Virus record (IMG/VR): IMGVR_UViG_3300009034_000029
DNA: 64,000 nucleotides
Reading direction: 5' to 3' (one strand)
From: an uncultured virus (IMG/VR IMGVR_UViG_3300009034_000029)
Taxonomy: Duplodnaviria; Heunggongvirae; Uroviricota; Caudoviricetes
Notes under the pieces: generated by a model
Database searches by the model: none
What the model was told of the DNA's origin: nothing
What the model saw: only the letters and a program-made list of their open reading frames with translations
Made by a program: the position numbers and the translations under genes
Shown here: piece after piece, positions 4,345 through 63,010 of the stretch
Layout of the letters: each line of letters starts with the position of its first letter
Position numbering within the stretch: position 1 is the stretch's first letter

Positions 4345-4530
4345 AGGAGGGTCCGGTGAGAACGAGTATGGGTCAAAAAATAAGATGTCCGAGGAAAGGA
4401 TGTGGAAGGATATTGCATGTGAAGGGTAAGTCGTATCTTTTCGTGCGATGTCTATGTGGGTATGGTGCACAAGCTCCAAATACTTCAGAAGGTAGAGTAA
4501 TGATTGCAAGTCTTAGTAGGAGGAAGGCCA

Positions 4531-11578: not shown

Positions 11579-12661
11579 TTGATGTCTGAAGAAATTAACC
11601 CAACAATAGCGGAACAGCTAACTGGCTGGGCAACCTCCCATAAGGAGAAGCCCGAGAAGTACATAAAGATCTTTATGGATAAGATGGTTGATGTGGAGTC
11701 ACATCATCCTAGCTGGTCTGTAGAGAAAAAAGAAGAACGTGCAATATCTTTAGCACGTGCGGAAATTAAGGCTCTACGGAGAAGCCCTGCGATTTACTTC
11801 ACAGGGTTCATATTAGGAGCATCTGCCCCACGAGATATTTATGGACATCTAAGGGTTAGAGCAAATCAAGCGGCACAAGAAGATTTCGATAAAGCAGTGC
11901 GGGCTCGATTGGTAAATCCAGATGGGGAGCCACTAGATACACGGAAGAACCTAAGTTCAGGTAAGCCGAATCCGAACTATATGAAGAAAGTACCCCCAGC
12001 AGTCTTTATTAAGAATGTTGTGGGTGCAGTAGCACCAGAGACCGATCCAAAAGCTATGAAGCCATTTGTCATGAATATGACGAGAGAGATGGCTCAGGCT
12101 AGAGTACCAATAGGAATTAAGGCTAAATTCCGAGCCAATATGCAGAGACGAATGCCAGAAGATCGGTATTTATTGAATAGTTCGGTATATACAAGATTCG
12201 AAGAACTACCAGATGAAAGCTGGACTGAACAGGCCAAAATAGAGATGTTGCAGAAACATCCAGGATTTGTTCCGTTAGGGAAGTTAATGGATTGGAATGC
12301 AGCGAATGTCGCTGATATGCAGAAGGTTATTGTAACTGAAGGGGATGTTGTAGCTGTGTCTACACAACCTTCAGAGACAGGTAATCTTCGAATGGTACTG
12401 GAAGATACGTCCTTAGGAATGGATGCAGATCCAGTTACGGTGTTTATGTCGGGTGATATGAACATCGATTTCGGACCTGGAAGTAGAGTGTTAGTTATTG
12501 GACGACTGAATGTCGGCCGAGGTCTGAACAGAGAAACAGGGCAATTAGATCCAAACATTAAAGTACCCGTTATTGCTGGGTATGGAATATATTCAATGCC
12601 AGAATTTAGGAGACCACCAGAAGAAGTTTCTCCACAAGAGTTTAAAGACGTAAATCTATAG
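11579..12661 (+). CDS. Putative OB-fold ssDNA-binding (RPA/SSB-like) protein
   Basis: C-terminal OB-like strand pattern (VTEGDVVAV...MVLEDTS...FGPGSRVLVIGRL); located upstream of a recombination-type ATPase. Confidence 0.55.
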   Translation: MMSEEINPTIAEQLTGWATSHKEKPEKYIKIFMDKMVDVESHHPSWSVEKKEERAISLARAEIKALRRSPAIYFTGFILGASAPRDIYGHLRVRANQAAQEDFDKAVRARLVNPDGEPLDTRKNLSSGKPNPNYMKKVPPAVFIKNVVGAVAPETDPKAMKPFVMNMTREMAQARVPIGIKAKFRANMQRRMPEDRYLLNSSVYTRFEELPDESWTEQAKIEMLQKHPGFVPLGKLMDWNAANVADMQKVIVTEGDVVAVSTQPSETGNLRMVLEDTSLGMDADPVTVFMSGDMNIDFGPGSRVLVIGRLNVGRGLNRETGQLDPNIKVPVIAGYGIYSMPEFRRPPEEVSPQEFKDVNL

Positions 12662-12761
12662 GAACGTAAGATATTGGTATGCTCGACCAATATGCCTCCT
12701 TGTAAGAGGGGATGGTCAGTTATGATTCTTCCCCGCATACCTCCTACGAAATTCCTATAGA
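12655..12761 (+). ncRNA. Structured RNA closed by a bulge-helix-loop motif
   Basis: 10-bp stem tctataggaa/ttcctataga, 4-bp helix cgta/tacg, 3-nt bulge aaa; inner stems ggtatgc/gcatacc and cctc/gagg. Confidence 0.55.
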
Positions 12762-12771
12762 TAATTCATAA

Positions 12772-12885
12772 GGGAAGGACACAGGAAAGCATACGTGGGA
12801 GTTAATCCCATTGTCAGCGACGAGCCTACAGGGAGTAGGTGCGGTTCAATTCCGGACTCGTCGTATGTCCTAGATTGTCCTTTCC
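12772..12885 (+). ncRNA. Structured RNA closed by a BHB-like motif, containing a tRNA T-loop-like hairpin
   Basis: gggaaggaca/tgtcctttcc stem; cagg/ccta helix with aaa and gat bulges; gcatacg/cgtatgt; internal cgg-TTCAATT-ccg; followed by a T-run. Confidence 0.65.
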
Positions 12886-12904
12886 ATTTTTTTGTTAATA
12901 TGAG

Positions 12905-13693
12905 GTGACCAAGTTGGGCTGGACTAGTATGAAAACTGAGGAACAGAAGAAAGTAGAGATGGATGTAAAGCCAAGTGAGGTATTTACTCCTATTAAACAG
13001 GCTAAGAGGAGAAAAGGATTAAAAATTGCTATTGCTGGAAGGGAGGGATCTGGAAAGACTCACTTTGGATGTACTTGTCCTCCTCCGATTTATTTTATTG
13101 GGACTGAATTTGGAGTTGAGCAGGTGGCCAAGAAATTTAATAAGGAGATTCATCTCGTAGAGGCTGTGTATATTGATCCTAAGACTGATGAGATAGATCC
13201 CTTAAAGAGTTTAGATACAGTTGAAAGGGCAGTAAGGTCAGTAAGACATATTACGGAAGGGACTATAGTATTGGATACCGTTACTGCTATATGGAGTTGG
13301 CTTGGAGATTGGTTGAAGGTTATATATGATGCGGAGGTTAAACAGAAGAAGTTTTTCCAGTTCATGTGGGGACCTGCGAATAGACGATATGATGGTATAA
13401 TATTGAGATTGTTGAGTAGAGATACAACGGTTGTTTTTACTGGACAAAAAAGAGAGGTATGGATTGGGAAAGACAGACAGCCTAATTTATGGGAGCCAAA
13501 ATGGCAGAAAACGACTCCTCATTGGGTTGATGTGTTTATTGATATTAACAGTAATTTAAAAGCTGATGGAGGATATATCCACACGGCGAATATACCGAAA
13601 TGTAGGTTTAAGCAGTTGAATAGTGCGATGTTGGAGCCAATCACCTATCCTGCGTTAATAAAGAAGTTTGCAGAAGAGGGAGTTAAATGGTAG
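12905..13693 (+). CDS. P-loop ATPase (AAA_24/Sak4-like recombination ATPase)
   Basis: Walker A GREGSGKT, Walker B TIVLDT; downstream of the SSB-like gene. Confidence 0.75.
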   Translation: MTKLGWTSMKTEEQKKVEMDVKPSEVFTPIKQAKRRKGLKIAIAGREGSGKTHFGCTCPPPIYFIGTEFGVEQVAKKFNKEIHLVEAVYIDPKTDEIDPLKSLDTVERAVRSVRHITEGTIVLDTVTAIWSWLGDWLKVIYDAEVKQKKFFQFMWGPANRRYDGIILRLLSRDTTVVFTGQKREVWIGKDRQPNLWEPKWQKTTPHWVDVFIDINSNLKADGGYIHTANIPKCRFKQLNSAMLEPITYPALIKKFAEEGVKW

Positions 13694-13825: not shown

Positions 13826-14104
13826 TTGAAGATCATGATATATGAAGTACAAGAGAAGTTATTAATTGAGGAATTGGCTAAACGATTACATAATGCTTGG
13901 TGGGAGGAATCTAAAAGACAACAGAGAAAATATTCAAGTATGATTCCTTATGAAGAGTTAAGTGAGGAGCAAAAGAATTTGGACAGAGCGTGTGCACATG
14001 CGGCAATAGTTTTTTTTGCTCAAATGAAATCAAAAGGTGTGTTGAGTCTTATTACGAATAAGCCAACTCCACTCCTTCCAAAAGGGAGGCATAGTTTACC
14101 ATGA
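13826..14104 (+). CDS. RyR (ryanodine receptor repeat) domain protein
   Basis: ELAKRLHNAW...MIPYEELSEEQKNLDR matches the RyR repeat consensus. Confidence 0.7.
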   Translation: MKIMIYEVQEKLLIEELAKRLHNAWWEESKRQQRKYSSMIPYEELSEEQKNLDRACAHAAIVFFAQMKSKGVLSLITNKPTPLLPKGRHSLP

Positions 14105-14868
14105 TGAAGACAGGATTAGGATTATGTTTGATAGGACCAGTCTCGTTACGACAGTTCATTGAGACTAATACAGATAGTCATTTCTTAATTGCAACGATTG
14201 CGAGTAAGGATGAGGTATATAAGAATTGGTATACTGAGTCTGATAGGTATAAGATTATTGATAATGGAGCTTATGAGGATAAAGATAGAAACCCTATGGG
14301 AAGTGAGGATCTTATAAGTATGGCTATTGAAACTAAATCGAATGAGATCTGTGCACCTGATAAGATGTTTAATAGAACGGATACTATTGTTAGGACTGCA
14401 CAGTTCTTAACGATATTATCAAGTGAGGAGAGAAAGAAATTTACTATTATGGGAATTCCTCAGGGGAAGGATGTGCCTGAGTGGATTAGTTGTTATAAGG
14501 ATATTACTTGTATGGAGGGTATAGATACAGTAGGATTGCCAATTTGGTTGGATAGGAAAGGAGGAAGACCTGCAGTAGTTGCATATATGTCTAAGAAGAA
14601 TATTTTAAAGGAAGGTATGGATCATCACTTGTTAGGATTAGATAGACCAGCTGAATTGTTTTGGTATTCAAACAATTCGGTTGTAAGGTCTGTTGACACG
14701 AGTTTACCTATATCATGTGCATGGGATAAGATAACTTTAAATCCAATAGGTGCTCCACCAAAACATAAGAGGGTGCCATTGATTAATTGTAATGATAAGA
14801 TTAATAGGAATTTATTGATACACAATGTGGAGGTGCTACGATATGCAGCGAGAGGATTCTCAAAATAA
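14101..14868 (+). CDS. dpdA: TGT-fold transglycosylase, DpdA-like (7-deazaguanine insertion into DNA)
   Basis: TGT/DpdA motifs IIDNGAYE, APD, IPQG, HHLLG, SVDTS; queE and queC in the same genome. Confidence 0.7.
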   Translation: MMKTGLGLCLIGPVSLRQFIETNTDSHFLIATIASKDEVYKNWYTESDRYKIIDNGAYEDKDRNPMGSEDLISMAIETKSNEICAPDKMFNRTDTIVRTAQFLTILSSEERKKFTIMGIPQGKDVPEWISCYKDITCMEGIDTVGLPIWLDRKGGRPAVVAYMSKKNILKEGMDHHLLGLDRPAELFWYSNNSVVRSVDTSLPISCAWDKITLNPIGAPPKHKRVPLINCNDKINRNLLIHNVEVLRYAARGFSK

Positions 14869-15622
14869 GACTGCGAGTGGCAAATGTCCATATTGTAATA
14901 AGAATATACATTTAAAAGCTGATGGGTTTGCTATTGGTGATAAAGCCCTATGTGGGGGTTGTAATAAAGTATTTTATATAGCAGGCGTTGAGGTGGAAGG
15001 TAAGGATATACGACTTACTACCTCAATATATAAATGGATTAGAGAAGGAGGTTAACATATGGTTAAATGTCCTTATTGTGAGGTAGAATTGAATCCTCCA
15101 GAGAAGCATAACCTGTTTGTGGATTGCAGTGCATGTGGGAAGTCATTCTATGTAGTGAAGACCGAAACAGGTTGGGAAGGTTCAAAGACTCCTCAGAAGA
15201 TATATAAGAAATCAAAAACAAGTTTGGTAGTAGAGAGTCCAAAGATTAAAACCGAAATTGAAAGGCCAAGGATTAAAACTGAAATCGAGCCAGCCGTTGA
15301 AGAGTAAAGGAGTGTAGGTCCTCGAAAGTTGCTGTTTCCATAATAGTTCACCTGTAAATCTTTCGTCACTTCGCTCAACTTAACGGTGGGTGATTGTATG
15401 CCAAGAAATGAACAAGAATTAAAAAAGGAATTGGAAAAGCACGGTATGCTTCTGGTAGCGGTGGGATTGATAGTTATAGCCCTTACGGGATATGCATCTA
15501 TTATTGGATATCTATCGTTAGCAGAAATGGCAATCATCATATTGCTGGGATTTCTTCTATTGAGTATCCGAGCAGTATTGATGTTATTGGCAACCATTGC
15601 AGAGATCCAGATAAGAGGGTAA
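14825..15622 (+). CDS. Two Zn-ribbon proteins (14825-15055, 15059-15307) and a small membrane protein (15398-15622)
   Basis: CPYC...CxxC pairs; two hydrophobic helices in the last ORF. Confidence 0.65.
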
Positions 15623-15623
15623 G

Positions 15624-16236
15624 TTGTCTCTTAGTACCACGAACCTGAGAAGGCAGGGTACTAGTCACTAGCTTTCGTGTCTTACGAATCGAGGACGCAA
15701 GTCTTACCGAGGAGTTTGACAAGGCCACAAACCTGAACAGTCACGAGCCGGTATATGTAGAGACATTTACATAGAGGCATATGCGTATGTGACTGTATGG
15801 CCACAATCTGACTTAGTGACGTGGGATACACGAGACTGAAATGCGACTTAGACACGTTTTGTCACCGCAAAACTTTTTTTGAGTCGCTTGCCCCACTAAG
15901 ACAGACACAGACCTGGGATACGCACAATTGGCACGGAGTGCAAATAGCACAAACCCGACCGGATCGGTTCACGTTGATAATCGAGGTTGAAAAGCCTAGA
16001 TGGGCTCGTGCTGTAAGGATTAGAAGGGTTGAAGAAACCTAGTACAATCCGCGGCGAGTTAAAAGTAGTCATTTAGGATCTAATATCGTGTCAGCACGGT
16101 ATTAGAGTACCTCGGCCAATTGGCCAACGCGATCCCTAAGGGAGTTAAGGGTTACCCCGTGGTGTGGGTGTGCAGTATCTAGAGTTAATGACTTAAACAG
16201 GTATTCGTGTCTCAGGGTGGATATATTAAGAGATAA
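15624..16236 (+). ncRNA. Large (~600 nt) highly structured ncRNA closed by a canonical bulge-helix-bulge
   Basis: 13-bp outer stem, ccac/gtgg 4-bp helix with gaa and ata 3-nt bulges, 7-bp inner stem; many internal hairpins; no convincing SD-led ORF. Confidence 0.75.
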
Positions 16237-16254
16237 TATAGGGGGTTTCTGTCA

Positions 16255-17012
16255 ATGAGTTCTCAAGAACGGATTTATAAGGTTTATGAGTTGATTAAAA
16301 GAAAACCTCGAAAGATAGAGGAAATTGCAGATATCTTACAGATCAAGCGTCGGACGGTAAGTAGTTATTTGAAGACATTAAGAAATTGGAAAATGGTTGT
16401 ATCGACAGCATTATTGGATGATGGCAGAGTAAAGATTCATCACACACCTAATAAAAAGCCTATATGGAGGATGAATGGAATTGGAATTAAGCAAGAGGCA
16501 TAAGTTCTTTTTAGAGGTATTTGGTGTCTGTATAGGAGCCGCGATAGTGTTTGGTAATTTCGTAACACTAGCGATTGTGTTAGTGTTTTTTGTAATATGG
16601 ATGATTATTGAATTTACATGGTCATTAAGAAATTTAATAATATCTTGGAAAGAGAAAAGAACGTCCAGGAGGCGTTTGCGTGGTGAATAAAAGACCAGTA
16701 AGTATTAAAAGAATGAGAACGGATAATGAATCCGCAGGCATAAAAAAAGGCACAATGGTAGTCTACGAATGTGGACATACGGAGTATAGTCTCGATCCGG
16801 ATTATAGACCAACATTTTGTCCGGCATGTAAAGTACAAACTAAAGAGACACAGGTAACAACTACTACGTCAGGTGCTACATTCATGACATATCCTTGCGG
16901 ATGTGTTGTGCAGTACTATAAAGGATTTATGGATGTTACGTTGTGTGAAATGCATAAGAAGATGTTAACCCAATACCCTGATGTGGGTAAGGCCCACATA
17001 CCGGAAGTTTAG
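16255..17012 (+). CDS. wHTH protein (16255-16503), small membrane protein (16475-16690) and Zn-binding protein (16680-17012)
   Basis: KIEEIADILQIKRRTVSSYLKTL HTH; hydrophobic segment; CGH..CPAC motifs. Confidence 0.65.
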
Positions 17013-17096: not shown

Positions 17097-17765
17097 ATGA
17101 AGGTTACTAGCATATTCTATTCTGTTCAAGGTGAAGGACAGAGCTTGGGACAGCCTTCTGTCTTTCTGAGATTGAATGGGTGTAATTTGAGATGTAAGTG
17201 GTGTGATACGAAGTATACATGGGCTGAAAGTGATGGGAAGGATATGAATATATCTGAGATTGCTTTTGGTGAGATAAAGAAATATCCTACTGCTAATAGG
17301 TTGGTTATAACTGGTGGGGAGCCTTTAATGCAGGCTGATGAAGTAGAGAGACTTATAAATGTATTACGGGAACAAAAAGATTGGTGGGTCGAAATTGAGA
17401 CTAATGGGACTATATCGCCTACCTTTAATAGTCCGAATTTATGGACAGTAGCTCCGAAGTTGAGTAATTCAGGAGTACCAGATTTTAAAAGAAAGATTAA
17501 GCAATCATGGTGGGACTATAGTTCTACAGGTAAGCTTATAGTGTATAAGTTTGTTGTAAATGATCCTGAGGATTCATGGGAAATTTTTGAATTTCAACAT
17601 AAGCATGGAATACCTTCAGAGAAGATTTACGTTATGCCGGAGTGTATAACTGTTGAGAAGCATAATGAGAATTTATTGTTGGCTATTGAAATGGCGAAGA
17701 ATAATGGGTGGAGGGTTACTCCTAGATTACATATACTAGCATGGGGGAATATACGAGGTGTCTGA
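17097..17765 (+). CDS. queE: 7-carboxy-7-deazaguanine synthase (radical SAM)
   Basis: IFYSVQGEG, CNLRCKWCDTKY, ITGGEPL, IETNGT, PKL, PRLHI motifs. Confidence 0.92.
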   Translation: MKVTSIFYSVQGEGQSLGQPSVFLRLNGCNLRCKWCDTKYTWAESDGKDMNISEIAFGEIKKYPTANRLVITGGEPLMQADEVERLINVLREQKDWWVEIETNGTISPTFNSPNLWTVAPKLSNSGVPDFKRKIKQSWWDYSSTGKLIVYKFVVNDPEDSWEIFEFQHKHGIPSEKIYVMPECITVEKHNENLLLAIEMAKNNGWRVTPRLHILAWGNIRGV

Positions 17766-21529: not shown

Positions 21530-22154
21530 GGCTAGGATAATTATATGTCTCGAGAGTATGGATTATGATTTTCTGATGTCATGTAATGTACCGAATATTA
21601 AGGCATTAGATCCACACCCAGCTAAGTCGTGGGGTGGACATACGAGAGCATCTGTTCCTGCATTACTGGCTGGATTGATGCCAAAGTGTACTGTGAAGGG
21701 ATGTACAAAGCATGGCTATTTTAGATCTGGTCCTATGGAATTAGCAAGTTTCCATAAGGAAGGTGCATTATTTTTATATATACCAAACGGATGGATTTTG
21801 GAGTTAATTGATCATTATGTGAACTCTATTCAAAGAAAGCGGTTGATGTATTGGATAAATCATTTGAAGGATCAGCCCACAAAACAAATGGTTAAGGCCC
21901 TCCAAATGAATTTAATGGGACGTAGGGAGTATCTTGCATATCTCCACGTTATGGAAACACACTCTCCATTCTTCCCAAGTAATCCTAAGTCTGAGAATAG
22001 AAGGAAGGATGCGTTGGAGGAAGTAGATAAGATGATTGAGCCATTGTTGTTTGGATATCCTGAGGCTCAAGTTATTGTTACATCTGACCATGGGTTAAAA
22101 CATAATGAATGGAATGAAGGTGCATTTGATGTCTTTATTGCGACTAATAGGTAA
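21522..22154 (+). CDS. Alkaline phosphatase/sulfatase superfamily protein
   Basis: IICLESMDYD, T.ASVPALL, HVMETHSPF, VIVTSDHG. Confidence 0.7.
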   Translation: MTKARIIICLESMDYDFLMSCNVPNIKALDPHPAKSWGGHTRASVPALLAGLMPKCTVKGCTKHGYFRSGPMELASFHKEGALFLYIPNGWILELIDHYVNSIQRKRLMYWINHLKDQPTKQMVKALQMNLMGRREYLAYLHVMETHSPFFPSNPKSENRRKDALEEVDKMIEPLLFGYPEAQVIVTSDHGLKHNEWNEGAFDVFIATNR

Positions 22155-22929
22155 AACTAGGTCTATTATCAATTTTGTGAAGAACAAGTTTGATGATAAT
22201 GAGATTGGTATATTTTGGAGTGGAGGGAAGGACTCTACTGCTATGTTACATTTGATTGGAGAGACATGTGGGGAGATACCATGGCAGGTAGTGTATGTAA
22301 ATACTGGTTATCACTTTCGGGAAACACATAACTTTATTAGTAAGCTAAGCGATACATGGCAATTTGATGTCTGTCATATCTTGGCTGAATCACCTCGTAC
22401 ACCTAATAATTCTACTGTGAAGGAATGTTGTTATTCAAGAAAGACATATCCGATAAAAGCTACAATTGAGGAGTTTGAATTTAAAGGTGTATTTGTTGCT
22501 ATACGTAGGGACGAGCATGGTGTAAGAAATAAGGAGAGATTTATTTCTCCAAGGGATCAAGGTCTTAAATGGAACATCAAGGAGCAAGACACTGAGCTGT
22601 CCGGATGGAATATCTACTATGCAGATTATGGTGATCAATGTCATCATTTTAGGATACATCCATTGTTACATTGGAATGAAGTAGATGTATGGAATTACAT
22701 TAGGGACTTTGAGATACCTGTGAATCAGTTGTATTTTTCGAAGAACGGTAAGAGATATAGGTCGTTAGGATGTAAGACTTGTACGGTTCCTATAGAGAGT
22801 AATGCAGTCACTATTGATGATATGATTAAAGAGATTAAATCTGACCGTTGGGGTGAAAGAGACGGTAGGTGGAGTAAAAAAGATATGACAATTATTTATG
22901 AGCATATGAGAGCATTAGGATATTTCTGA
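22105..22929 (+). CDS. cysD: Sulfate adenylyltransferase subunit 2 (CysD; PAPS-reductase superfamily)
   Basis: WSGGKDS, IRRDEHGVRNKERFISPRD, RIHPLLHWNEVDVWNYI, RYRSLGC..CT.PIES, ER.GR. Confidence 0.82.
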   Translation: MNGMKVHLMSLLRLIGKTRSIINFVKNKFDDNEIGIFWSGGKDSTAMLHLIGETCGEIPWQVVYVNTGYHFRETHNFISKLSDTWQFDVCHILAESPRTPNNSTVKECCYSRKTYPIKATIEEFEFKGVFVAIRRDEHGVRNKERFISPRDQGLKWNIKEQDTELSGWNIYYADYGDQCHHFRIHPLLHWNEVDVWNYIRDFEIPVNQLYFSKNGKRYRSLGCKTCTVPIESNAVTIDDMIKEIKSDRWGERDGRWSKKDMTIIYEHMRALGYF

Positions 22930-25047: not shown

Positions 25048-25578
25048 ATGACAGAAGTTAGAAGATCTGTACAAATAGCTGAGATTGGGATATTTGCGGC
25101 ACTCTATGCAGTGTTGACTTGGTTCTTGGCTCCGATTAGTTATATGGCGATACAGTTTAGGATGTCGGAGGTATTGAAGTCAGTGGTAATTAAACGGAGG
25201 CATATAATATTGGCCTTCGTGTTTGGTGTTGCATTGAGTAATGCATTTAGTCCATATGCGGGTATTTGGGAGTTTATCTGGATGCCATTCATCAATCTGA
25301 TTGGTGGCTTCGTATGTTGGGTAATTGGATCGAGATTTGCATACTATGTAAATATTAGTGAAGGACGAGCGTATAATATAACAGCGATATTTGCTTGTGC
25401 AGTGTACGGTGTAATCATTGCAGGTGGAGTAGCAATTATGTTGGACTTCGTATTGGGTATACCATTTATGGTATTGATTGGACCATTAGTGATCAGTGAA
25501 GTAGTGTTGTTAATAGCTTCGGCCTTGATTGTCTTACCCTTAGTAGATAAACTACCAACTTGGAGGGAGATGATTTAA
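25048..25578 (+). CDS. queT: QueT-like membrane transporter component (queuosine precursor)
   Basis: AALYAVLT..LAPISY.AIQFRMSE signature; multiple TM helices; adjacent to queC. Confidence 0.8.
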   Translation: MTEVRRSVQIAEIGIFAALYAVLTWFLAPISYMAIQFRMSEVLKSVVIKRRHIILAFVFGVALSNAFSPYAGIWEFIWMPFINLIGGFVCWVIGSRFAYYVNISEGRAYNITAIFACAVYGVIIAGGVAIMLDFVLGIPFMVLIGPLVISEVVLLIASALIVLPLVDKLPTWREMI

Positions 25579-25593
25579 CTCCCTCCCTTTTTT
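25562..25593 (+). terminator. Hairpin plus T-run
   Basis: ggagggag-atgatttaa-ctccctcc followed by ctttttt. Confidence 0.5.
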
Positions 25594-25610
25594 ATTATGG
25601 AGTGATGATG

Positions 25611-26339
25611 ATGAGTAATAATAGAAGAGTAGTAATATTATGGAGTGGTGGAATTGATTCTACTACCTTAGTATGGTGGGCAAAAAAGAAAGGAATGGAT
25701 GTTCGTACTCTGACTATTTATTATGGTCAGAAACATACTAAGGAAACTTCCTTCGTAGCGAAGCTTACAGAGAAATTTAGGATTGATAATAAGACTGTGG
25801 ATTTAGGAGCAATCCAGCCTCTTATTGATTATGGTGCACTAACTGGTACTGCTAATGTACCACAAGGTACGTATGATGAGAAGACCCAAAGAGTTACTAT
25901 TGTTCCAAATAGGAATATGATATTATTAGCCATTGCCGCTGGGTATGCTATAACATTGGGATCGTCGGTTATATTATATGCGGCTCACAGGAATGATCGT
26001 AGTATATATCCAGATTGTAGACCAGTGTTTGTTAATGCCATGAATGCTGCAATAGAAGCGGGGAATGTTTGGAGTCCCGTGGAGATATGGGCTCCTTTTA
26101 TTGATTATTCGAAGACTGAGATTGTAACGTTAGGTTTGAAATTAGATGTTCCATATGAGGATACTTGGAGTTGTTATGAAGGTGGAAGGAAGCCTTGTGG
26201 TAAATGTGGGACTTGTTTGGAGAGAACGGAAGCCTTTATGAACAATGTGGCTAATGACCCAGCATTGAACCCCAAGGATTGGATTAAGTTTATGGGGTAT
26301 TATAAGGATGCCAGAATTAGTGACGGTAACAAAACATAG
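25611..26339 (+). CDS. queC: 7-cyano-7-deazaguanine synthase
   Basis: SGGIDST, YGQKH, VPNRN, YPDCR, TWSCY, CGKCGTC.ER. Confidence 0.95.
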   Translation: MSNNRRVVILWSGGIDSTTLVWWAKKKGMDVRTLTIYYGQKHTKETSFVAKLTEKFRIDNKTVDLGAIQPLIDYGALTGTANVPQGTYDEKTQRVTIVPNRNMILLAIAAGYAITLGSSVILYAAHRNDRSIYPDCRPVFVNAMNAAIEAGNVWSPVEIWAPFIDYSKTEIVTLGLKLDVPYEDTWSCYEGGRKPCGKCGTCLERTEAFMNNVANDPALNPKDWIKFMGYYKDARISDGNKT

Positions 26340-31334: not shown

Positions 31335-32479
31335 CATTATATGATATTATATTGAATACATTGGAATCAAGGAAGATTGCTAAGGTACAAATGTATGCAC
31401 CGTATTATGTTTGTTCAGCTATGGCACACTTATTTAACATTAAGAACAAAACTGAACCCGTGTATTATGAGGCAGGCAGAATACCAGATATGAGGATACA
31501 TATCATGTTCGTAGCACCTCCAGGGTTTAGTAAGAGCTTTTGGTTAGAGCAATTCTTAAGAGGTAATAGATCAATATTTGGTACTACAAGCATACAATGT
31601 GCTTTTGAAGGAACTATGACAGAAGCAGCATGGACTGGCACAATCAGGTTTATGGACGAAAATAAAGAACCAGTCATTAGACCAGGTGCAGCGCATGAAT
31701 TCCAAACAGCAATACTAGGTATTGAGGAATTTTCAGCGTTAACGAACATGATGAAGAGTCAGCATTCTAAGTTATTGGATAATGCATTGTTGACTAGTTT
31801 AGACTCAGGATGGTTATTCAAACGTCTCGCGGCAGGACCAATAAGATATATCACGCATATTACACTTCATACAGGAACACAACCTGCAAGATTTGATCTG
31901 TCAAGTGGTTTAGGGAGAAGGTTTATGTTTCTGTTATTTAATCCGTCGAAAGGTGAAATGGATGAAATTAAACTTGCTAGACGACGGAGTCAAAATATAT
32001 TAGGTGATTCAGCAGCATTAAGTGAGATTAGACAGAGAGTGCGGTATATTCAAGATTCAATAAAGAGGATACAGACTGTTGTGTTTGATAGATCAATACA
32101 AAAAGCATTTGATACATTGCCTATGCCGCATTATGAGGAACCTTTGTATGAGAGGTTGTTTTTGGGTTATACATTGGCTACGCAGGATTTTAATGAACAT
32201 GTAGTTGTTAAAACTGATACTGAGTCAATGAGACTACTCACTCAAGTAGTTAAATGGAGAAGGCAGGTTAAGAGAGGTAGTGAAGTTTCACAAGTTGCCA
32301 GTATAATTAATGAAGCTGGTGGAGTAATGACGATTCGTCAATTCAGAGAGAAAATGTTAGATTTCGGTGTGGATTGGCAAGGTAGTACAGAACTGATGAA
32401 TCAATTACAAAGAATGAGAGTTGTTATAGTATCAAAAGGCGAGATAAGGCTATGGAGGCGAAGAACCAGTGGTAAATGA
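31331..32479 (+). CDS. MCM-like AAA+ ATPase, putative replicative helicase
   Basis: Walker A APPGFSKS, T.AAW.GT, Walker B LGIEEF, GLGRRF arginine finger; C-terminal wHTH. Confidence 0.7.
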   Translation: MTLYDIILNTLESRKIAKVQMYAPYYVCSAMAHLFNIKNKTEPVYYEAGRIPDMRIHIMFVAPPGFSKSFWLEQFLRGNRSIFGTTSIQCAFEGTMTEAAWTGTIRFMDENKEPVIRPGAAHEFQTAILGIEEFSALTNMMKSQHSKLLDNALLTSLDSGWLFKRLAAGPIRYITHITLHTGTQPARFDLSSGLGRRFMFLLFNPSKGEMDEIKLARRRSQNILGDSAALSEIRQRVRYIQDSIKRIQTVVFDRSIQKAFDTLPMPHYEEPLYERLFLGYTLATQDFNEHVVVKTDTESMRLLTQVVKWRRQVKRGSEVSQVASIINEAGGVMTIRQFREKMLDFGVDWQGSTELMNQLQRMRVVIVSKGEIRLWRRRTSGK

Positions 32480-32954
32480 TAAGCAACAAACAACTGTGTA
32501 TTTAAGTAAAAGGTTAATTGATATTGTAAAGGCTAAGGGAATAAACCTTAGTAGGGTTGTTAATGATGTATTGGATTCGATGTTTGCTGCAGAAAGAAGT
32601 ACTAGACATTTGACACTCGACGTTCTTTCTGGACGAATGTCAGATATCGATTTACAGATACATGAGGCACAATTAGATGTTGATAGACTAAACTTGAGAA
32701 TTAACGAATTACATACACAGCGTAGGACACTTGGGTTCTCGTCAGAGAAACTAAAGGATGAAATTGCTCAGATTGAACGAAGTAAGAAAGTTGCTAAGAT
32801 ATTGAGTGAGATCAATACAATTATCAAAGACGTTGGATACACTATGGATGCATGGGACAAGATCGTAAAATATCAACAGGAACTCGGTGAGCTAGAACAT
32901 CCTATTGATGAGAATTGGTTGAGAATGCATATTAGAAGGTTACAGATGTATTGA
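32469..32954 (+). CDS. Ribbon-helix-helix (CcdA-like N-terminus) coiled-coil protein
   Basis: TTVYLSKRLIDIVKAKGINLSRVVNDVL followed by heptad repeats. Confidence 0.6.
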   Translation: MVNDKQQTTVYLSKRLIDIVKAKGINLSRVVNDVLDSMFAAERSTRHLTLDVLSGRMSDIDLQIHEAQLDVDRLNLRINELHTQRRTLGFSSEKLKDEIAQIERSKKVAKILSEINTIIKDVGYTMDAWDKIVKYQQELGELEHPIDENWLRMHIRRLQMY

Positions 32955-34065: not shown

Positions 34066-34116
34066 TTTTTCTTTTTCCTTCTCCTCTTTTTTGTTCTTTT
34101 TTTTGTTTTTGTTTCT
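34066..34116 (+). terminator. Long pyrimidine/oligo-T terminator between the convergent early and late operons
   Basis: tttttctttttccttctcctcttttttgttctttttttgtttttgtttct. Confidence 0.75.
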
Positions 34117-37437: not shown

Positions 37438-40225
37438 CCCTCGTACTGGTAACTTCTCTTAACCTTGCCCTAAATTTGACATCCTCAATTCTGCCACTTT
37501 GATGTTGGGGTTGGAATAAATCAACCACACATTTTATCACATGCCTACCAGTCATTACATACACTGGCTTCTTCGAACTAGCCCAATCACCGTATTTATC
37601 CTTATCCTTTAAAAAGGTCTGTGCAGCCAATACACCATCAACACTGATTTGTCTGGCCTCAAAACCCCTAATAACTATATAATCATCCCTATCCAAAATA
37701 GTCTGCCTACTAGCCAACATACGTCTATTAATATCAAACTTCGTATCAACACACATTACTTCCGGAACGTCTGGATGCTCTCCTAGATACACAGCTTTTT
37801 GTTGTTGTTTGGAAATATCTATATGTTCCAATTGAGCTGACCAACCATCAGTTTGTGGGACAAGATCATTACTCGTGCCTATTAACATAGGAACACTATT
37901 TAGCCCCAAAGAAGGACATCTAATCAATGCATCAAACTTTAACCCAGTATATCTAACCCAACCTGCATGTACCTCACTCTCTGTATCTGCTGCTGAATTC
38001 AATTCAACCTTAATATACACAACATTCGAATCAATATCATCAATCTCAAGAACTTTACCATTGGCCTCACTTCTAAAGTCCTGATTACTTCCAGACCCAT
38101 TTACACTTAATAATAGCGTCCACGTATAATTATCAACACTATAATACACCTTAAACCTACCAGATGCAACTTCATTACTTGATATATATCCACCAACATT
38201 CAAGTCTATCTTACCAAACTTCCACCCAGCAGGTAATCTAAACTCACTCACATAACTTGCAGTCGAACCAATTGTAGTATTATCAGACCATCCAACAGTA
38301 TACCAAACATCCTTATTAGTCCCAACCCATGGTTTCCTCGGACTATACCCATAATAATACGGATACCCACTAGTATCTATAATCGACCACCATAATGGAT
38401 CACAATCACCAATGGCTTCAGTATACAACCTACTATCATATAAATACCTACCATGACCGGTTGGCTCAATAGTAATTGTAGTTCCAGGCACTACCCTACT
38501 AGCTTCTAATCTCTTCCATGAAGTCTGATTCTCCAGCACTACATCAGACTCTCTATCATAATGAAGTTTAAAGTACATATCGTAAGTTGTATTATACCAC
38601 GTACCGTTATCATATCTCCATAATATCCCATCATCATACGGGCCAGGATTTTGAGTCCTTACTTTCCTATAATGAGAATCATTCTCAGTAGTATTACTTA
38701 ATACAATTGCATACATAGTCCCAGGAGTCAACTCTACCCCCAAATTCACATATATCGCGGCATCAGGTTGTGCTTCAAGACGATCCCATATTTCATACGG
38801 AATTATAGTTCTCGCTAATTTCCAATTTGTATACGGTTGATTAGACCCATCCACTGGAGTAACATCAATCCTTATATCAGTCGTTGGAGTACCAAAATCA
38901 GCTCCGGGCATAATAGTCAAACCTCTCAACCGTGAACTTTGTGCAGTAAATGTTTGTCCAAGTCTTTGATAATTACCAGTAGCCGTAGTACCAAATTGTG
39001 TTTCAATATTCTCCGAAATATTAGCCTGATCTACAATCTCAACAATAGGATTACCAGTAACATCAACTTTAGGAGCCGAAGCTAATAAATTCGTTCCAGT
39101 TCTAGTAATTGTAGCAGTATCATATTGAAATGCAGGAGTATAAGGCTCCACAGCAACCCAATTCCAATACATAGTATTAGAAGTAACCTGCACACGACCC
39201 ACCCTAACAGAACCTCTATAAGTCTTCGTAATCTTCGTACTTGTAGCTATAAGTTCACTATTGAAATAAAATGAAGAAGTATTCCCATACACATGTATCT
39301 CAAATGGATATCCAACACCATATGTTATGGCAGTTGGCAATGCAGTCCAACTAATCACATCACCATCCTGATCAACCAACTTATATTGGTCTGTCGAGGA
39401 ATTAATATGCCACCTATAATATATAGTCCCTGCACTATTACACCTAAATGTAAATGTAGCCTCATTATCACCAGTAACAAACTGCATTGTTCCGCTCAGT
39501 ATGTAATCTCTCCACTCAAACGACTCTGGATATAATGTTGGGTCTAATCTAGCTTCAGCAGTTCCACCCAACATTGTCATTGTTCCGTTACCTATTGCTG
39601 CAACTCTCACAATATCATCTACTTCATCCCATTGAGATGGAGGATAACTACCACCTGATTTTTCGTTCATAAAATTATCAAAAAACATCTGACGTGGACT
39701 CAAAACCAAATCATCAATCCAAGCTTCGCCAATCCTCGTTGACGTACTTGTATGAGTAACATAAACCCTAATATAATTTATTACCTTAGCATTTGTAGAA
39801 TAATCAGCCTCATCATACGTCCAACCTTGAGCCTTTTCATTTCCAGGAGCAAAATCTAATATACACTGATTACCTGAATTAGTCCCATCAATGTAATAAA
39901 ATATACAATAAATCTGTACAGTCCCACTAGAACCACGTTGTATGGATTTTGCCCAAGCACTCAATCTCCATTTATCCATTCTTGCATATTTCAGTGTTGG
40001 ATATATATCCTGATGTATGGTTGTACTGACCTCAGAAGGATAAACATTCACATAAAGACTTTTACTCCCAATACGTGATTGATCACCAACAATCTCAGCC
40101 TTACCTGAGTCTTGTACCCAAGGACAATTATCCTCATTTAACCCATAATCCTCAAACCCAGGATCCTTAATCAAATTAGGCATAGCCATTATACTAGGCT
40201 GAATTGTATGTGTTTGGCTAACCAA
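37424..40225 (-). CDS. Large tail protein paralogous to 34177-37437
   Basis: NLIKDPGFE, GQTF.. module and similar C-terminus. Confidence 0.7.
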   Translation of the reverse strand: MVSQTHTIQPSIMAMPNLIKDPGFEDYGLNEDNCPWVQDSGKAEIVGDQSRIGSKSLYVNVYPSEVSTTIHQDIYPTLKYARMDKWRLSAWAKSIQRGSSGTVQIYCIFYYIDGTNSGNQCILDFAPGNEKAQGWTYDEADYSTNAKVINYIRVYVTHTSTSTRIGEAWIDDLVLSPRQMFFDNFMNEKSGGSYPPSQWDEVDDIVRVAAIGNGTMTMLGGTAEARLDPTLYPESFEWRDYILSGTMQFVTGDNEATFTFRCNSAGTIYYRWHINSSTDQYKLVDQDGDVISWTALPTAITYGVGYPFEIHVYGNTSSFYFNSELIATSTKITKTYRGSVRVGRVQVTSNTMYWNWVAVEPYTPAFQYDTATITRTGTNLLASAPKVDVTGNPIVEIVDQANISENIETQFGTTATGNYQRLGQTFTAQSSRLRGLTIMPGADFGTPTTDIRIDVTPVDGSNQPYTNWKLARTIIPYEIWDRLEAQPDAAIYVNLGVELTPGTMYAIVLSNTTENDSHYRKVRTQNPGPYDDGILWRYDNGTWYNTTYDMYFKLHYDRESDVVLENQTSWKRLEASRVVPGTTITIEPTGHGRYLYDSRLYTEAIGDCDPLWWSIIDTSGYPYYYGYSPRKPWVGTNKDVWYTVGWSDNTTIGSTASYVSEFRLPAGWKFGKIDLNVGGYISSNEVASGRFKVYYSVDNYTWTLLLSVNGSGSNQDFRSEANGKVLEIDDIDSNVVYIKVELNSAADTESEVHAGWVRYTGLKFDALIRCPSLGLNSVPMLIGTSNDLVPQTDGWSAQLEHIDISKQQQKAVYLGEHPDVPEVMCVDTKFDINRRMLASRQTILDRDDYIVIRGFEARQISVDGVLAAQTFLKDKDKYGDWASSKKPVYVMTGRHVIKCVVDLFQPQHQSGRIEDVKFRARLREVTSTRDDDE

Positions 40226-41255
40226 TCCTCATAACCTCCTTGGAGATTTGATATCGTATCTGTTCAAACGTACAGTAGTCTTCTGGAATTTCAGTAAGGG
40301 ATTTCCCACCAGACCGTAAGTGACAAACCTTATAACATCCCCCACAAGGATACACCAAACAGTTATAACACTGTTCATGATCTAGACCTCTCCAAAACTC
40401 AACTTTGTTTTTGTCTACTCCAGTCTCAACATGACCTATCCTAAACTCTGGTTGTATCAGACGATGACAAGGATAAATAAACCCATCTAAACCTACGGCA
40501 GTCGAACCTTGACAGGCTCCACAGGTCCAGCGAGAACGAGTATGCCTTGGCATCTTTTTCTGCAACCGAGTTATGGTCTTATCAACAAAAACTATCGATA
40601 TATCATTTTCTTTTGCCCAGTACGCGGCCTTACGATATTGTCTTTCCAATTCCTTAAAATCATTAATTGTGTAAGTCCTATAGCTATCAACAACTTTATT
40701 AAACGCAATACTCTCAAACCCAATCTTCACAGCCTCCTTAACACTATCAACCAAATATGGGATAGCTTCAGGGCTAACCGCCATTGCACAGCGTAAATTC
40801 AAGAGATGATAAACACGCATGAGGTTGATAGTCCTCGCAACTAACGGATAACTTTCCCTTCCATTCCACATTGGTCGCATGTAATTTTGGACGAACGGAA
40901 CCCCATCAAACGAGACTAGGGCGCCAAAATCATTTTCTGCAAAATACTTGACCCGCTCGACATTCCAAGGAGTCCCGTTCGTTGTAACACCAGCACGTAC
41001 GATCCTTCCCCTTTCACGTTCTTCAAGTACCCTCTTAAATGTATGTTTGACGAGATGCCAGGAGAGCATTGGTTCGGTACCAAACAAAGATACACTACAT
41101 TTACCGGAGGCTTGGCCGAAGAACCAATCGAGCGTGGAATCTAGTAGCCCCACTGACATCTCATCTTTACCTTTATCCTGTAGGAAACAATACCTACATT
41201 TCATATTACACTTATCATTAATATGTAACACTACGCTGGAAAATTCTATCGACAA
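40218..41255 (-). CDS. Radical SAM/SPASM domain maturase
   Basis: CNMKCRYC, FGTEP, TTNGT, VSFDG; SPASM CGAC...DGFIYPCH...CYNC...CGGC...C...YC. Confidence 0.9.
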   Translation of the reverse strand: MSIEFSSVVLHINDKCNMKCRYCFLQDKGKDEMSVGLLDSTLDWFFGQASGKCSVSLFGTEPMLSWHLVKHTFKRVLEERERGRIVRAGVTTNGTPWNVERVKYFAENDFGALVSFDGVPFVQNYMRPMWNGRESYPLVARTINLMRVYHLLNLRCAMAVSPEAIPYLVDSVKEAVKIGFESIAFNKVVDSYRTYTINDFKELERQYRKAAYWAKENDISIVFVDKTITRLQKKMPRHTRSRWTCGACQGSTAVGLDGFIYPCHRLIQPEFRIGHVETGVDKNKVEFWRGLDHEQCYNCLVYPCGGCYKVCHLRSGGKSLTEIPEDYCTFEQIRYQISKEVMRIG

Positions 41256-62359: not shown

Positions 62360-63010
62360 TTGCAATTTATAATGTAATGTTAATTAAATAGATAATTATT
62401 AAATTAAATAAATAAAATATTATTGTATATAAAATTTTATTATAAAATTAGATGATAGGTTATATATATAATCAAGATGTTATATAATTAAAAGTTTGTA
62501 TATAAAAATAAATAAGAGGTTAAATATATATGAAAAATGTTGAAAAGATAGATAAACATCTATTTAATTCGAAATTGATTGATATAGTATTAAAAATTGT
62601 TATAGAAATAGTAAAATGTAAAAATAATAAAGAAAAGATTTATATATATACGGAATTGTTTTATTATCAATGGAATAAGTTAATTAAATAGATAGATAGT
62701 TAATTAATCAATTAAACTATTATTTATATATAGACTATTTGATATAATCAAGTAGTCATATAAATATATAGGAGAAGATCTATATAAAGCATAAAGTAGC
62801 TAATCAAATACGAAGATTGTTGAATAAGCAAGAGAACAGTTATATAATCAAGCATAAGCTTAAAACTATAAAGCTAAACAAAGATAAATAGATAAACGCT
62901 TATTTAACTAGCAAGAAGTTTGAATAAGGAAATGATCTGTTGAATAAATAGACAGATCATTATACTTTATATTGACTATTTATAAATATAGATAGTCATT
63001 GATACATTCA
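62360..63010. other. Very AT-rich divergent intergenic region with short repeats (candidate origin/control region)
   Basis: Repeats atataatcaag and (t)aaatagata; located at the strand switch. Confidence 0.5.

What the first reader, a model, noticed from the sequence alone, without database searches (positions are those of the whole stretch)
15624..16236. ~580-nt highly structured RNA bounded by a perfect bulge-helix-bulge: candidate new large circular ncRNA
Seen: 15624-36 ttgtctcttagta pairs with 16224-36 tattaagagataa (13 bp including G-U). ccac(15637-40)/gtgg(16217-20) forms the 4-bp helix, with bulges gaa(15641-43) and ata(16221-23) each 3' of the helix. cctgaga/tctcagg follows. This is textbook BHB geometry and predicts excision of 15643-16222 (580 nt). 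The interior is full of helices: cagtcac/gtgactg, tctgacttagtg/cactaagacaga, gcgactta/tgagtcgc, gttttg/caaaac, tctaatatcgtg-tcag-cacggtattaga and agtcatt/aatgact. No homing-endonuclease ORF is present, and I see no RNase P, SRP or hammerhead signature. Inference: a novel large viral ncRNA in the ROOL/GOLLD/OLE size class, or a permuted known RNA, matured as a circle.
Basis: partly seen in the sequence, partly recalled or inferred. Interest (0 to 1): 0.93.

Follow-up and report, generated by a model that had tools for sequence, protein, structure and literature searches.

The report
Virus RNA flanked by splicing motif
A gene-free 630-base stretch of an uncultured, probably archaeal, tailed virus folds into an unusually stable RNA whose closing stem carries the exact motif that archaeal tRNA-splicing enzymes cut, so it may be released as a 580-base RNA circle, but no relatives or RNA data exist yet to prove it.

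Summary
At 15623-16237 a 14-bp helix, the 4-bp helix CCAC/GTGG, two 3-nt bulges each 3' of it, and a 7-bp helix give canonical bulge-helix-bulge (BHB) geometry. They form the base of a 46-bp stalk (37 Watson-Crick, 9 G-U) that closes four domains.

- **Structure:** the + strand folds at -219.9 kcal/mol (z -6.9); the minus strand at -180.5 (z -2.6). This is the most stable of 92 windows tested.
- **Composition:** GC is 47% against about 38% elsewhere.
- **Coding:** no ORF exceeds 76 codons, no Pfam match, no protein homologue.
- **Known RNAs:** no Rfam match even at E<=10.
- **Host:** probably archaeal. PolB, tail tube and an ERCC4 nuclease match archaeal viruses best.

Weak points:
- No homologue of the RNA was found anywhere, so there is no covariation test.
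- No RNA-seq exists.
- A T7 run lies inside the RNA.
- BHB-like motifs of this size arise by chance in 2 of 14 shuffles of the window.
- Some genes look bacterial.

Best reading (about 0.45): a virus-encoded structured ncRNA excised by the host splicing endonuclease and circularised (580 nt). That would be a new variant of a known processing route, with an interior of unknown class.

The parts
15623..15636 (+). Outer ('exon') helix, 5' arm; 14 bp with 16224-16237 (3 G-U pairs)
   Evidence: mean pair probability 0.98
15637..15640 (+). Central 4-bp helix of the BHB, 5' strand (CCAC), pairs with GTGG 16217-16220
15641..15643 (+). 5' three-nt bulge (gaa); predicted cleavage between 15642 and 15643
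   Evidence: Geometry. The cleavage position follows from the canonical BHB rule (cut after the second bulge nucleotide): recalled, and consistent with the passage read
15644..15675 (+). Inner stalk, 5' arm (helices of 7, 2, 7, 5 and 7 bp with 16181-16216)
15678..15721 (+). Domain 1: hairpin with GCAA (GNRA-type) tetraloop at 15697-15700
15723..15802 (+). Domain 2: long hairpin with GACA tetraloop at 15762-15765; begins with motif copy CACAAACCTGA (15726-36)
15807..15905 (+). Domain 3: nested hairpins. Contains the T7 run 15874-15880 (possible internal terminator) and the only variant seen in the DNA run, 15852 A>G, which turns an A-U pair into G-U
15916..16180 (+). Domain 4: 265-nt multi-branched domain (z -4.94 on its own). 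Includes the 12-bp hairpin 16079-16106 and the palindrome GGCCAATTGGCC at 16113-16124
16181..16216 (+). Inner stalk, 3' arm
16217..16220 (+). Central 4-bp helix, 3' strand (GTGG)
16221..16223 (+). 3' three-nt bulge (ata); predicted cleavage between 16222 and 16223. The excised RNA would be 15643-16222, 580 nt
   Evidence: cleavage rule as above
16224..16237 (+). Outer helix, 3' arm
15638..15958 (+). Span holding four copies of CACRRACCYGR (15638, 15726, 15906, 15948). These are the only four in the 64-kb window. The first copy is the 5' half of the BHB; the other three stand at the 5' side of domain 2, of domain 4 and of a sub-helix within domain 4
   Evidence: 0.21 expected in the window; pattern defined after seeing the copies
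14973..14980 (+). TTTATATA box about 80 nt upstream of the first gene of the unit (15059); candidate archaeal TATA box from which the RNA would be co-transcribed
   Evidence: inference; the octamer is not enriched overall, 14 found against 8.8 expected
15386..15622 (+). Upstream gene (78 aa; looks like a membrane protein by eye, not tested). Its stop codon ends 1 nt before the outer helix
16255..16503 (+). Downstream gene (82 aa, ArsR-like winged helix-turn-helix). Its start lies 17 nt after the outer helix, with GGGGG as a likely ribosome-binding site

Best explanation
The 632-nt gene-free gap between two small genes of an uncultured tailed virus, probably of a euryarchaeal-type host in sediment, encodes a large structured non-coding RNA on the + strand. 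It is most likely transcribed as part of the polycistronic message that starts near 14973-15059. The flanks then pair into a 14-bp helix that presents a canonical bulge-helix-bulge motif. The host tRNA-splicing endonuclease (EndA) would cut after 15642 and after 16222. The host RtcB-type ligase would join the ends of the excised piece into a 580-nt circle, and would rejoin the message, leaving a 14-bp hairpin with a 7-nt loop between the two cistrons. The circle, a 32-bp stalk carrying four domains, would be exonuclease-resistant. It would act in trans as a scaffold or decoy, and the four CACRRACCYGR copies are candidate multivalent binding sites.

Shown: the anatomy, the thermodynamic stability, the strand bias and the absence of coding signal.
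Inferred: transcription, cleavage, ligation, the circle and the function.
For: **Geometry.** The motif is exact: 3-nt bulges on opposite strands, each 3' of a 4-bp helix, flanked by helices of 14 and 7 bp.

**Stability.**
- The + strand MFE is -219.9 kcal/mol, z -6.86, with 0 of 20 shuffles as stable.
- It is the lowest MFE of 92 windows of 631 nt across the window, with a residual of -3.1 SD after regression on GC.
- The two interior halves are each stable alone: z -4.94 and -4.96, 0 of 200 shuffles.
- 29 control sense-strand 250-nt windows gave mean z -0.63, SD 1.35, minimum -3.56. Domain-aligned 250-nt target windows gave -4.26 and -4.10.

**Strand specificity.**
- The minus strand folds at only -180.5 kcal/mol, z -2.57.
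- The 46-bp stalk has 9 G-U pairs and only one C-A opposition. That pattern fits selection on the + strand RNA rather than a DNA inverted repeat.

**Non-coding.**
- The longest stop-to-stop frame is 76 codons.
- 0 of 12 frames hit Pfam at E<=1.
- ORF 15821-16042 has no homologue among 5.8 billion protein clusters.
- Its codon score is 0.036 bits per codon, below 39 of 40 small annotated ORFs (mean 0.296, SD 0.123).

**Composition and placement.** GC is 0.472 against about 0.38, and the element fills the gap from stop codon to ribosome-binding site.

**Archaeal virus.**
- All 15 listed best PolB matches are haloarchaeal tailed viruses, with E down to 3e-57.
- The best tail-tube match is Haloarcula hispanica tailed virus 1, at 7e-15 against 2e-9 for the lowest E-value among the listed bacterial-phage rows.
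- The ERCC4+HhH nuclease matches only 3 of 50,697 phage records, all viruses of Methanobacteriales. It also matches NCBIfam Hef nuclease at 2.6e-27.
- The convergent terminator region 34066-34110 is a series of T runs without a hairpin.
- TTTATATA boxes stand upstream of four operon starts.

**Precedent.** EndA is reported to process BHB sites in rRNA precursors and in an mRNA 5' UTR, yielding circles (PMC7714728, abstract read).

**Variant.** The single variant in the one DNA run that holds the sequence, 15852 A>G, converts an A-U pair to G-U.
Against: - **No relatives.** No homologue of the RNA was found, so there is no covariation and no evidence of conservation.
- **BHB alone is not significant.** BHB-like motifs with >=21 flanking bp arise in 2 of 14 shuffles of the window.
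- **Internal T run.** A T7 run at 15874-15880 lies inside domain 3. T runs of 6 or more in this genome are mostly intergenic and terminator-like, and oligo-T terminates archaeal RNA polymerase (recalled), so full-length transcription may be inefficient.
- **Host not proven archaeal.**
  - The nearest QueT clusters are bacterial, mainly Bacillota and Chloroflexota.
  - The terminase and the DpdA-like protein match bacterial phages best.
  - Three hairpin-plus-T-run sites look like bacterial intrinsic terminators: 16564-16591, about 18585 and about 25588.
  - The ERCC4-HhH look-alike clusters are mostly 'Uroviricota' without host information.
- **Baseline structure is not zero.** A GC-rich coding region in the same window (11960-12660) also gives z of -3.5 to -4.7.
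Confidence: 0.45

Rival explanations
1. A real structured RNA, but the BHB is incidental. The element is a linear ncRNA or a long structured intercistronic spacer, and its 46-bp closing stalk is a generic double-stranded processing or stabilising stem. In a bacterial host it would be an RNase III site like those flanking rRNAs. The two 3-nt bulges have no role.
For: - All the stability and strand-bias evidence applies equally.
- BHB-like arrangements of this size occur by chance in 2 of 14 shuffles.
- The stalk has four other irregularities besides the two bulges.
- Some genes point to bacteria.
- There are hairpin-plus-T-run terminator-like sites.
Against: - Two adjacent defects of a closing stem being exactly 3 nt each, on opposite strands, 4 bp apart and of the right polarity is unlikely. 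My estimate is under 1%; this is an inference, not a computed value.
- Three hallmark genes match archaeal viruses best, although archaeal viruses are, from recall and not counted here, a tiny share of the 50,697 records.
- From recall, most archaea lack RNase III and use BHB/EndA for exactly this architecture.
Confidence: 0.27
2. A selfish, ORF-less BHB intron. In this reading it is a mobile archaeal-type intron, or the remnant of one that lost its homing-endonuclease gene, inserted into an intergenic hairpin of the virus. It is spliced out harmlessly and has no function for the virus.
For: - The BHB geometry and the long exon-exon helix.
- The size (580 nt) is in the range recalled for archaeal rRNA introns.
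- GC content differs from the surrounding genome, as expected for a foreign insert.
- The RNA has no relatives, which would fit a sporadic insertion.
Against: - No trace of a LAGLIDADG or any other ORF.
- No second copy was looked for outside the window, because the window's own assembly is not held.
- The interior is far more structured than an eroding ORF would be.
- The repeated motif at domain starts suggests a built architecture.
- From recall, known mobile BHB introns sit in rRNA or tRNA genes.
Confidence: 0.12
3. A DNA-level element: a replication origin, a packaging site, or a miniature transposon with about 55-nt terminal inverted repeats.
For: The flanking arms are long inverted repeats, and the interior is rich in inverted repeats.
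Against: - 9 of the 10 transition-type differences between the arms are G-U on the + strand and only 1 is C-A. The binomial probability of 9 or more out of 10 is about 0.01 (my arithmetic).
- The minus strand folds 39 kcal/mol worse.
- No target-site duplication is visible at the ends (by eye).
- A far better origin candidate exists: the 18% GC repeat-rich region at 62.4-63.0 kb.
Confidence: 0.05
4. Small protein-coding genes, for example ORF 15821-16042 (73 aa), missed by annotation.
For: An ORF with a GTG start exists.
Against: - No Pfam match at E<=1.
- No homologue in 5.8 billion protein clusters.
- Its codon score is lower than 39 of 40 small ORFs of the same genome.
- No Shine-Dalgarno sequence upstream (by eye), whereas most genes here have GGAGGTGA.
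- The ORF would cover only 222 of the 632 nt.
Confidence: 0.03

Closest known systems
Archaeal pre-rRNA processing stems (BHB motif in the helix formed by the flanks of 16S and 23S rRNA; circular pre-rRNA intermediates)
   Same: A long helix formed by the 5' and 3' flanks of a large structured RNA carries a 3-4-3 BHB. The predicted outcome is a circular RNA plus ligated flanks. Sources: abstracts in the listing and the abstract of PMC7714728 read.
   Different: The enclosed RNA is not rRNA (no Rfam match). It is virus-encoded and lies between protein genes in an mRNA. Nothing suggests that the circle is later opened.
BHB introns of archaeal tRNA, rRNA and mRNA (including the 5' UTR intron of HVO_1309 in Haloferax volcanii)
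   Same: The same motif and the same predicted enzymes. A non-coding part of an mRNA can be a substrate (PMC7714728, abstract). The passage on BHB geometry in PMC4090602 was read.
   Different: It is much larger than tRNA introns, which span 11-129 nt (PMC4090602 passage). It has no homing-endonuclease ORF, unlike many rRNA introns (recalled). It is intercistronic in a viral operon, and its interior is highly structured.
ROOL, GOLLD and OLE: large ornate bacterial and phage-associated ncRNAs
   Same: The size class is similar (ROOL at about 580 nt is recalled). They are multi-domain, GC-enriched relative to the genome, and often phage- or prophage-borne. They form RNA-only homo-oligomers (PMC12286853, abstract seen in the listing).
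   Different: No sequence or structure match to their Rfam models, even at E<=10. Those RNAs are bacterial and are not BHB-bounded or circular. Oligomerisation was not tested here.
Permuted or circularised archaeal RNAs (permuted SRP RNA of Thermoproteus, permuted tRNAs, circular omega-RNAs)
   Same: BHB processing is used to circularise a functional ncRNA. The first example is recalled. PMC3978253 and PMC12558985 were seen only as titles and abstracts in the listing.
   Different: No part of the interior matches SRP RNA, tRNA or any other family.

Membership tests
Substrate of the archaeal splicing endonuclease (canonical hBHBh' motif) | Two 3-nt bulges on opposite strands separated by a 4-bp helix | tested here: met
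   gaa 15641-43 and ata 16221-23 flank CCAC/GTGG
Substrate of the archaeal splicing endonuclease (canonical hBHBh' motif) | Helices on both outer sides of the bulges | tested here: met
   Outer helix 14 bp, inner helix 7 bp and continuing to 32 bp
Substrate of the archaeal splicing endonuclease (canonical hBHBh' motif) | Made in a cell that has EndA and an RtcB-type ligase (an archaeal host) | tested here: inconclusive
   Of 9 proteins compared with the phage collection, 5 found matches. The best match is an archaeal virus for 3 of them (PolB, tail tube, ERCC4 nuclease) and a bacterial phage for 2 (terminase, DpdA-like). The other 4 had no match. QueT looks bacterial. No host genome, provirus or spacer was found.
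Substrate of the archaeal splicing endonuclease (canonical hBHBh' motif) | Observed cleavage, circular junction or spliced junction | not testable with these tools
   No RNA run holds the sequence. The DNA contigs show no joints.
Conserved structured ncRNA family | Homologues with compensatory base changes | tested here: inconclusive
   No homologue was found in the phage or plasmid collections, in IMG/VR, JGI metagenome or GTDB genome contigs, or in the protein database. The pattern-based scans reach only close relatives, so absence is not shown.
ROOL / GOLLD / OLE / raiA / HEARO and all other Rfam 15 families (including RNase P, SRP, tmRNA, group I and group II introns, rRNA) | Match to the family covariance model | tested here: not met
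   0 matches at gathering score in the whole window. 0 matches at E<=10 in 15300-16600 on both strands.
Mobile archaeal rRNA-type intron | Homing-endonuclease ORF (LAGLIDADG) or a remnant of one; location in an rRNA or tRNA gene | tested here: not met
   No frame longer than 76 codons; 0 of 12 frames hit Pfam at E<=1. The flanks are protein genes. No tRNA in the window.

The most novel reading that the evidence does not exclude
This is the first example of a virus-encoded large structured non-coding RNA that hijacks the host tRNA-splicing machinery to be cut out of a viral polycistronic mRNA as a stable 580-nt circle. It would be an archaeal-virus counterpart of the large ornate phage RNAs such as ROOL and GOLLD, with an interior belonging to no known RNA class and carrying four copies of an 11-nt motif, one of which doubles as the 5' splice site.
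Probability: 0.3. Interest if true: 0.85.

Novelty: new variant of a known kind. Interest (0 to 1): 0.6.

Why it matters
BHB processing by the splicing endonuclease is known for cellular tRNAs, rRNAs and one mRNA leader. My literature searches found no report of an archaeal virus using it to make a large ncRNA (full-text library only).

If true, it would show three things:
- Archaeal viruses encode large structured RNAs, as some phages do.
- The host splicing apparatus is a viral RNA-maturation route.
- An RNA can be removed from between two cistrons without breaking the message.

The RNA itself (four domains, no family match) would be a target for structure determination. The construct is also directly testable: a single in vitro transcript and a recombinant EndA would settle the central claim.

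Tried and rejected
**Searches for homologues of the RNA (all empty)**
- blastn 'distant' against 50,697 phage records and 72,556 plasmids.
- The nearest held virus record, G001, lacks the region. It covers only about window 18.5-51 kb.
- nhmmer over 16 loci fetched through the QueE-like gene.
- Degenerate back-translated patterns from frames across the RNA: IMG/VR, JGI metagenomes, GTDB genomes.
- A two-copy motif pattern in IMG/VR gave one hit, L018. It is a tandem repeat inside a coding gene and not a relative.
- These pattern scans reach only close relatives.

**Searches through neighbouring genes**
- The 255-aa, AAA_24, HTH, PAPS-reductase-like and PolB proteins found only the same partial contig or nothing in IMG/VR.
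- AAA_24 has only two relatives in the protein database, at 83% and 38% identity, both on short contigs.
- An alignment of these found one 1.5-kb metagenome contig and nothing in the genome collection.

**Expression**
- No RNA holder is listed. One DNA sediment run holds the sequence.
- Laying its contigs showed one A>G difference and no joints; the run is kept as contigs only.

**Other BHB candidates**
- 4390/4440 lies in what reads by eye as a small zinc-ribbon ORF, and the fold does not use it.
- A minus-strand candidate at about 11992/12627 lies inside a plausible 360-aa ORF.
- A scan of Methanobacterium virus Drs3 gave only low-complexity chance hits.

**Not possible**
- Searching the window's own assembly.
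- Reading earlier findings.
- Searching archaeal genomes by phylum without a genome handle.
- A covariance model of the whole RNA, because 615 columns exceed the 400-column limit.

**Other negatives**
- A search for the tRNA_int_endo family in G001 found none.
- Rfam at E<=10 on the tRNA-like spacer at 12600-12960 gave only two chance-level rows.

Full report
**What is there**

The window is most of a 67-kb contig of a tailed virus; one search gives a longest contig of 67,299 nt for its own protein.
- Replication and DNA-modification genes lie on the + strand up to about 34 kb: PolB, AAA_24, a PD-(D/E)XK nuclease, an ERCC4-HhH nuclease, QueC, QueE-like, QueT and a DpdA-like protein.
- Structural genes lie on the minus strand after that: terminase, tape measure and tail tube.
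- Genes are tightly packed.
- Between the stop codon of a 78-aa gene (15620-22) and the start of an 82-aa winged-helix gene (16255) lies a 632-nt stretch with no credible ORF.

**The observation**

The unconstrained MFE fold of 15615-16245 gives the following, in order:
- a 14-bp outer helix, 15623-36 with 16224-37;
- the 4-bp helix CCAC/GTGG;
- a 3-nt bulge on each strand, each 3' of the central helix (gaa 15641-43 and ata 16221-23);
- a 7-bp helix.

The stalk then continues to 46 bp in all, up to 15675/16181. It closes a junction with four domains: 15678-15721, 15723-15802, 15807-15905 and 15916-16180. Pair probabilities are mostly above 0.9.

This polarity is the one found in pre-tRNA, where the 4-bp helix includes the first two anticodon bases (passage of PMC4090602 read). 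The rule that the cut falls after the second bulge nucleotide is recalled.

**Is it more than chance?**

The BHB on its own is not.
- My scan finds 132 loose BHB-like arrangements in the window, and this one is the best.
- Among 14 dinucleotide shuffles of the window, 2 gave one at least as long and 6 came within one base pair.

The case rests on independent signals that coincide.
- **Stability of the whole.** The + strand MFE is -219.9 kcal/mol, z -6.86. It is the lowest of 92 windows of the same length across the 64 kb, 3.1 SD below the GC regression.
- **Stability of the parts.** Both interior halves are stable without the stalk: z -4.94 and -4.96, 0 of 200 shuffles. 29 control sense-strand windows had mean z -0.63 and minimum -3.56.
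- **Strand bias.** The minus strand is 39 kcal/mol weaker, z -2.57. The stalk has 9 G-U pairs against one C-A opposition. This argues for an RNA read from the + strand and against a DNA inverted repeat.
- **Composition.** GC is 0.472 against about 0.38 in the surroundings.
- **Placement.** The stalk begins 1 nt after a stop codon and ends 17 nt before a start codon.

A caution applies. A GC-rich coding region in the same window also reaches z of -3.5 to -4.7, so z-scores here have a negative baseline.

**Not coding, and not a known RNA**
- No frame exceeds 76 codons.
- 0 of 12 frames hit Pfam at E<=1.
- Its codon-usage score is lower than that of 39 of 40 small ORFs of this genome.
- Rfam 15 gives nothing at gathering thresholds in the window, and nothing at E<=10 in 15300-16600 on either strand.
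- ARAGORN finds no tRNA.

**Internal features**
- Two hairpins end in GNRA-type loops: GCAA at 15697-700 and GACA at 15762-65.
- An 11-nt motif, CACRRACCYGR, occurs four times. All four copies are inside the RNA on the + strand, and there are none elsewhere in the 64 kb. The expectation is 0.21, but the pattern was defined after seeing the copies.
- The first copy is the 5' half of the BHB (CAC, bulge, CCUGA). The others stand at the 5' side of domain 2, of domain 4 and of a sub-helix within domain 4.
- I could not build further BHBs from these copies, because only one matching 3' half (UCAGG-GUGG) exists. This was judged by eye.
- A 12-nt palindrome, GGCCAATTGGCC (16113-24), sits on a small hairpin. 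One such palindrome in 600 nt is not unlikely by chance.

**Whose virus?**

The BHB matters only if the host is an archaeon.

For an archaeal host:
- All 15 listed best PolB matches are haloarchaeal tailed viruses, at about 25% identity and E down to 3e-57.
- The best tail-tube match is Haloarcula hispanica tailed virus 1.
- The ERCC4-HhH nuclease matches only 3 of 50,697 phage records, all Methanobacteriales viruses. It resembles the archaeal Hef nuclease.
- The terminator region between the convergent gene blocks is a string of T runs without a hairpin.
- TTTATATA boxes precede four operon starts, including 14973, upstream of the unit that holds the RNA.

Against an archaeal host:
- QueT resembles bacterial proteins.
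- The terminase and the DpdA-like protein match bacterial phages best.
- Three sites look like bacterial hairpin-plus-T terminators.
- Four further proteins had no match at all.

I put an archaeal host at roughly 0.7.

**How it most likely works**

No promoter-like box lies just upstream, and the downstream gene has no room for one (by eye). The RNA is therefore probably co-transcribed with its neighbours. The flanks pair. EndA cuts both bulges. An RtcB-type ligase closes the 580-nt piece and rejoins the message, as reported for rRNA precursors and for an mRNA leader in Haloferax (PMC7714728, abstract; abstracts listed). The circle would be a stable, multi-domain RNA acting as a scaffold or decoy. 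That last step is a guess.

A T7 run inside domain 3 (15874-80) could terminate many transcripts before the 3' arm is made, and this is the main internal objection.

**Relatives**

None were found, by any route open to me; the routes are listed under Tried and rejected. The lineage is very rare.
- The only related viral record is a partial copy that lacks the region.
- A neighbouring gene has just two relatives in the protein collection.
- The single DNA run holding the sequence shows one change, 15852 A>G, which keeps a pair (A-U to G-U). One data point proves nothing.

Covariation, the standard proof for a structured RNA, is therefore missing.

**Verdict**
- In mechanism this would be a new variant of a known route: BHB excision, here virus-encoded, intercistronic, large and ORF-less.
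- Its interior belongs to no described class.
- I found no report of such a viral RNA in four full-text searches; papers outside that library were not searched.

Noticed in passing
window 12818-12863 (+), with a T7 run at 12887-12893: The 243-nt gap before the AAA_24 gene holds a 46-nt tRNA-like mini-structure. It has a 7-bp acceptor-like stem (CGACGAG/CTCGTCG), a 5-bp hairpin, and a T-arm-like hairpin whose loop, TTCAATT, fits the T-loop consensus (recalled). It has no D-arm. It is followed by an oligo-T run. ARAGORN and Rfam at E<=10 do not call it. It could be a processing signal or a remnant of an attachment site.
   Followed up: partly
window 62380-63000: A region of 18-30% GC without ORFs. 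It is full of short direct repeats and holds 5 of the window's 14 TTTATATA octamers. It is a candidate replication origin or genome-end region.
   Followed up: no
window 14101-14868, 17097-17765, 25048-25578, 25560-26339, 22105-22929: A 7-deazaguanine DNA-modification gene set: a weakly DpdA-like protein, QueE-like, QueT, QueC and a CysD/PAPS-reductase-like protein. The structured RNA sits inside this block, between the DpdA-like and QueE-like genes.
   Followed up: partly
window 40218-41255 (-): A radical-SAM/SPASM peptide maturase of the PapB type (NCBIfam E 2.6e-52, below the family cut-off) sits among the tail genes. That is an unusual place for such an enzyme.
   Followed up: no
window about 11975-12645 (-): The second-best BHB-like arrangement of the window (9+4+10 bp, span 632 nt) lies on the minus strand, inside the plausible 360-aa ORF 11579-12661. 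The minus-strand MFE uses it (z -4.66). I judged it a chance product of a GC-rich coding region.
   Followed up: partly
window about 4357-4500 (+): An unannotated small ORF in the 159-nt gap reads, by eye, like a zinc-ribbon protein with CPxxGC...CxC spacing. It overlaps a small chance BHB-like hairpin at 4383-4453.
   Followed up: partly
window 32469-32954 (+): A 161-aa protein with an N-terminal CcdA antitoxin-like domain (Pfam E 8.5e-08). No partner toxin was recognised.
   Followed up: no
window 15852: The only difference between the window and the contigs of the one public DNA run that holds it is A>G at 15852. This changes an A-U pair of helix 15843-52/15878-87 to G-U.
   Followed up: yes
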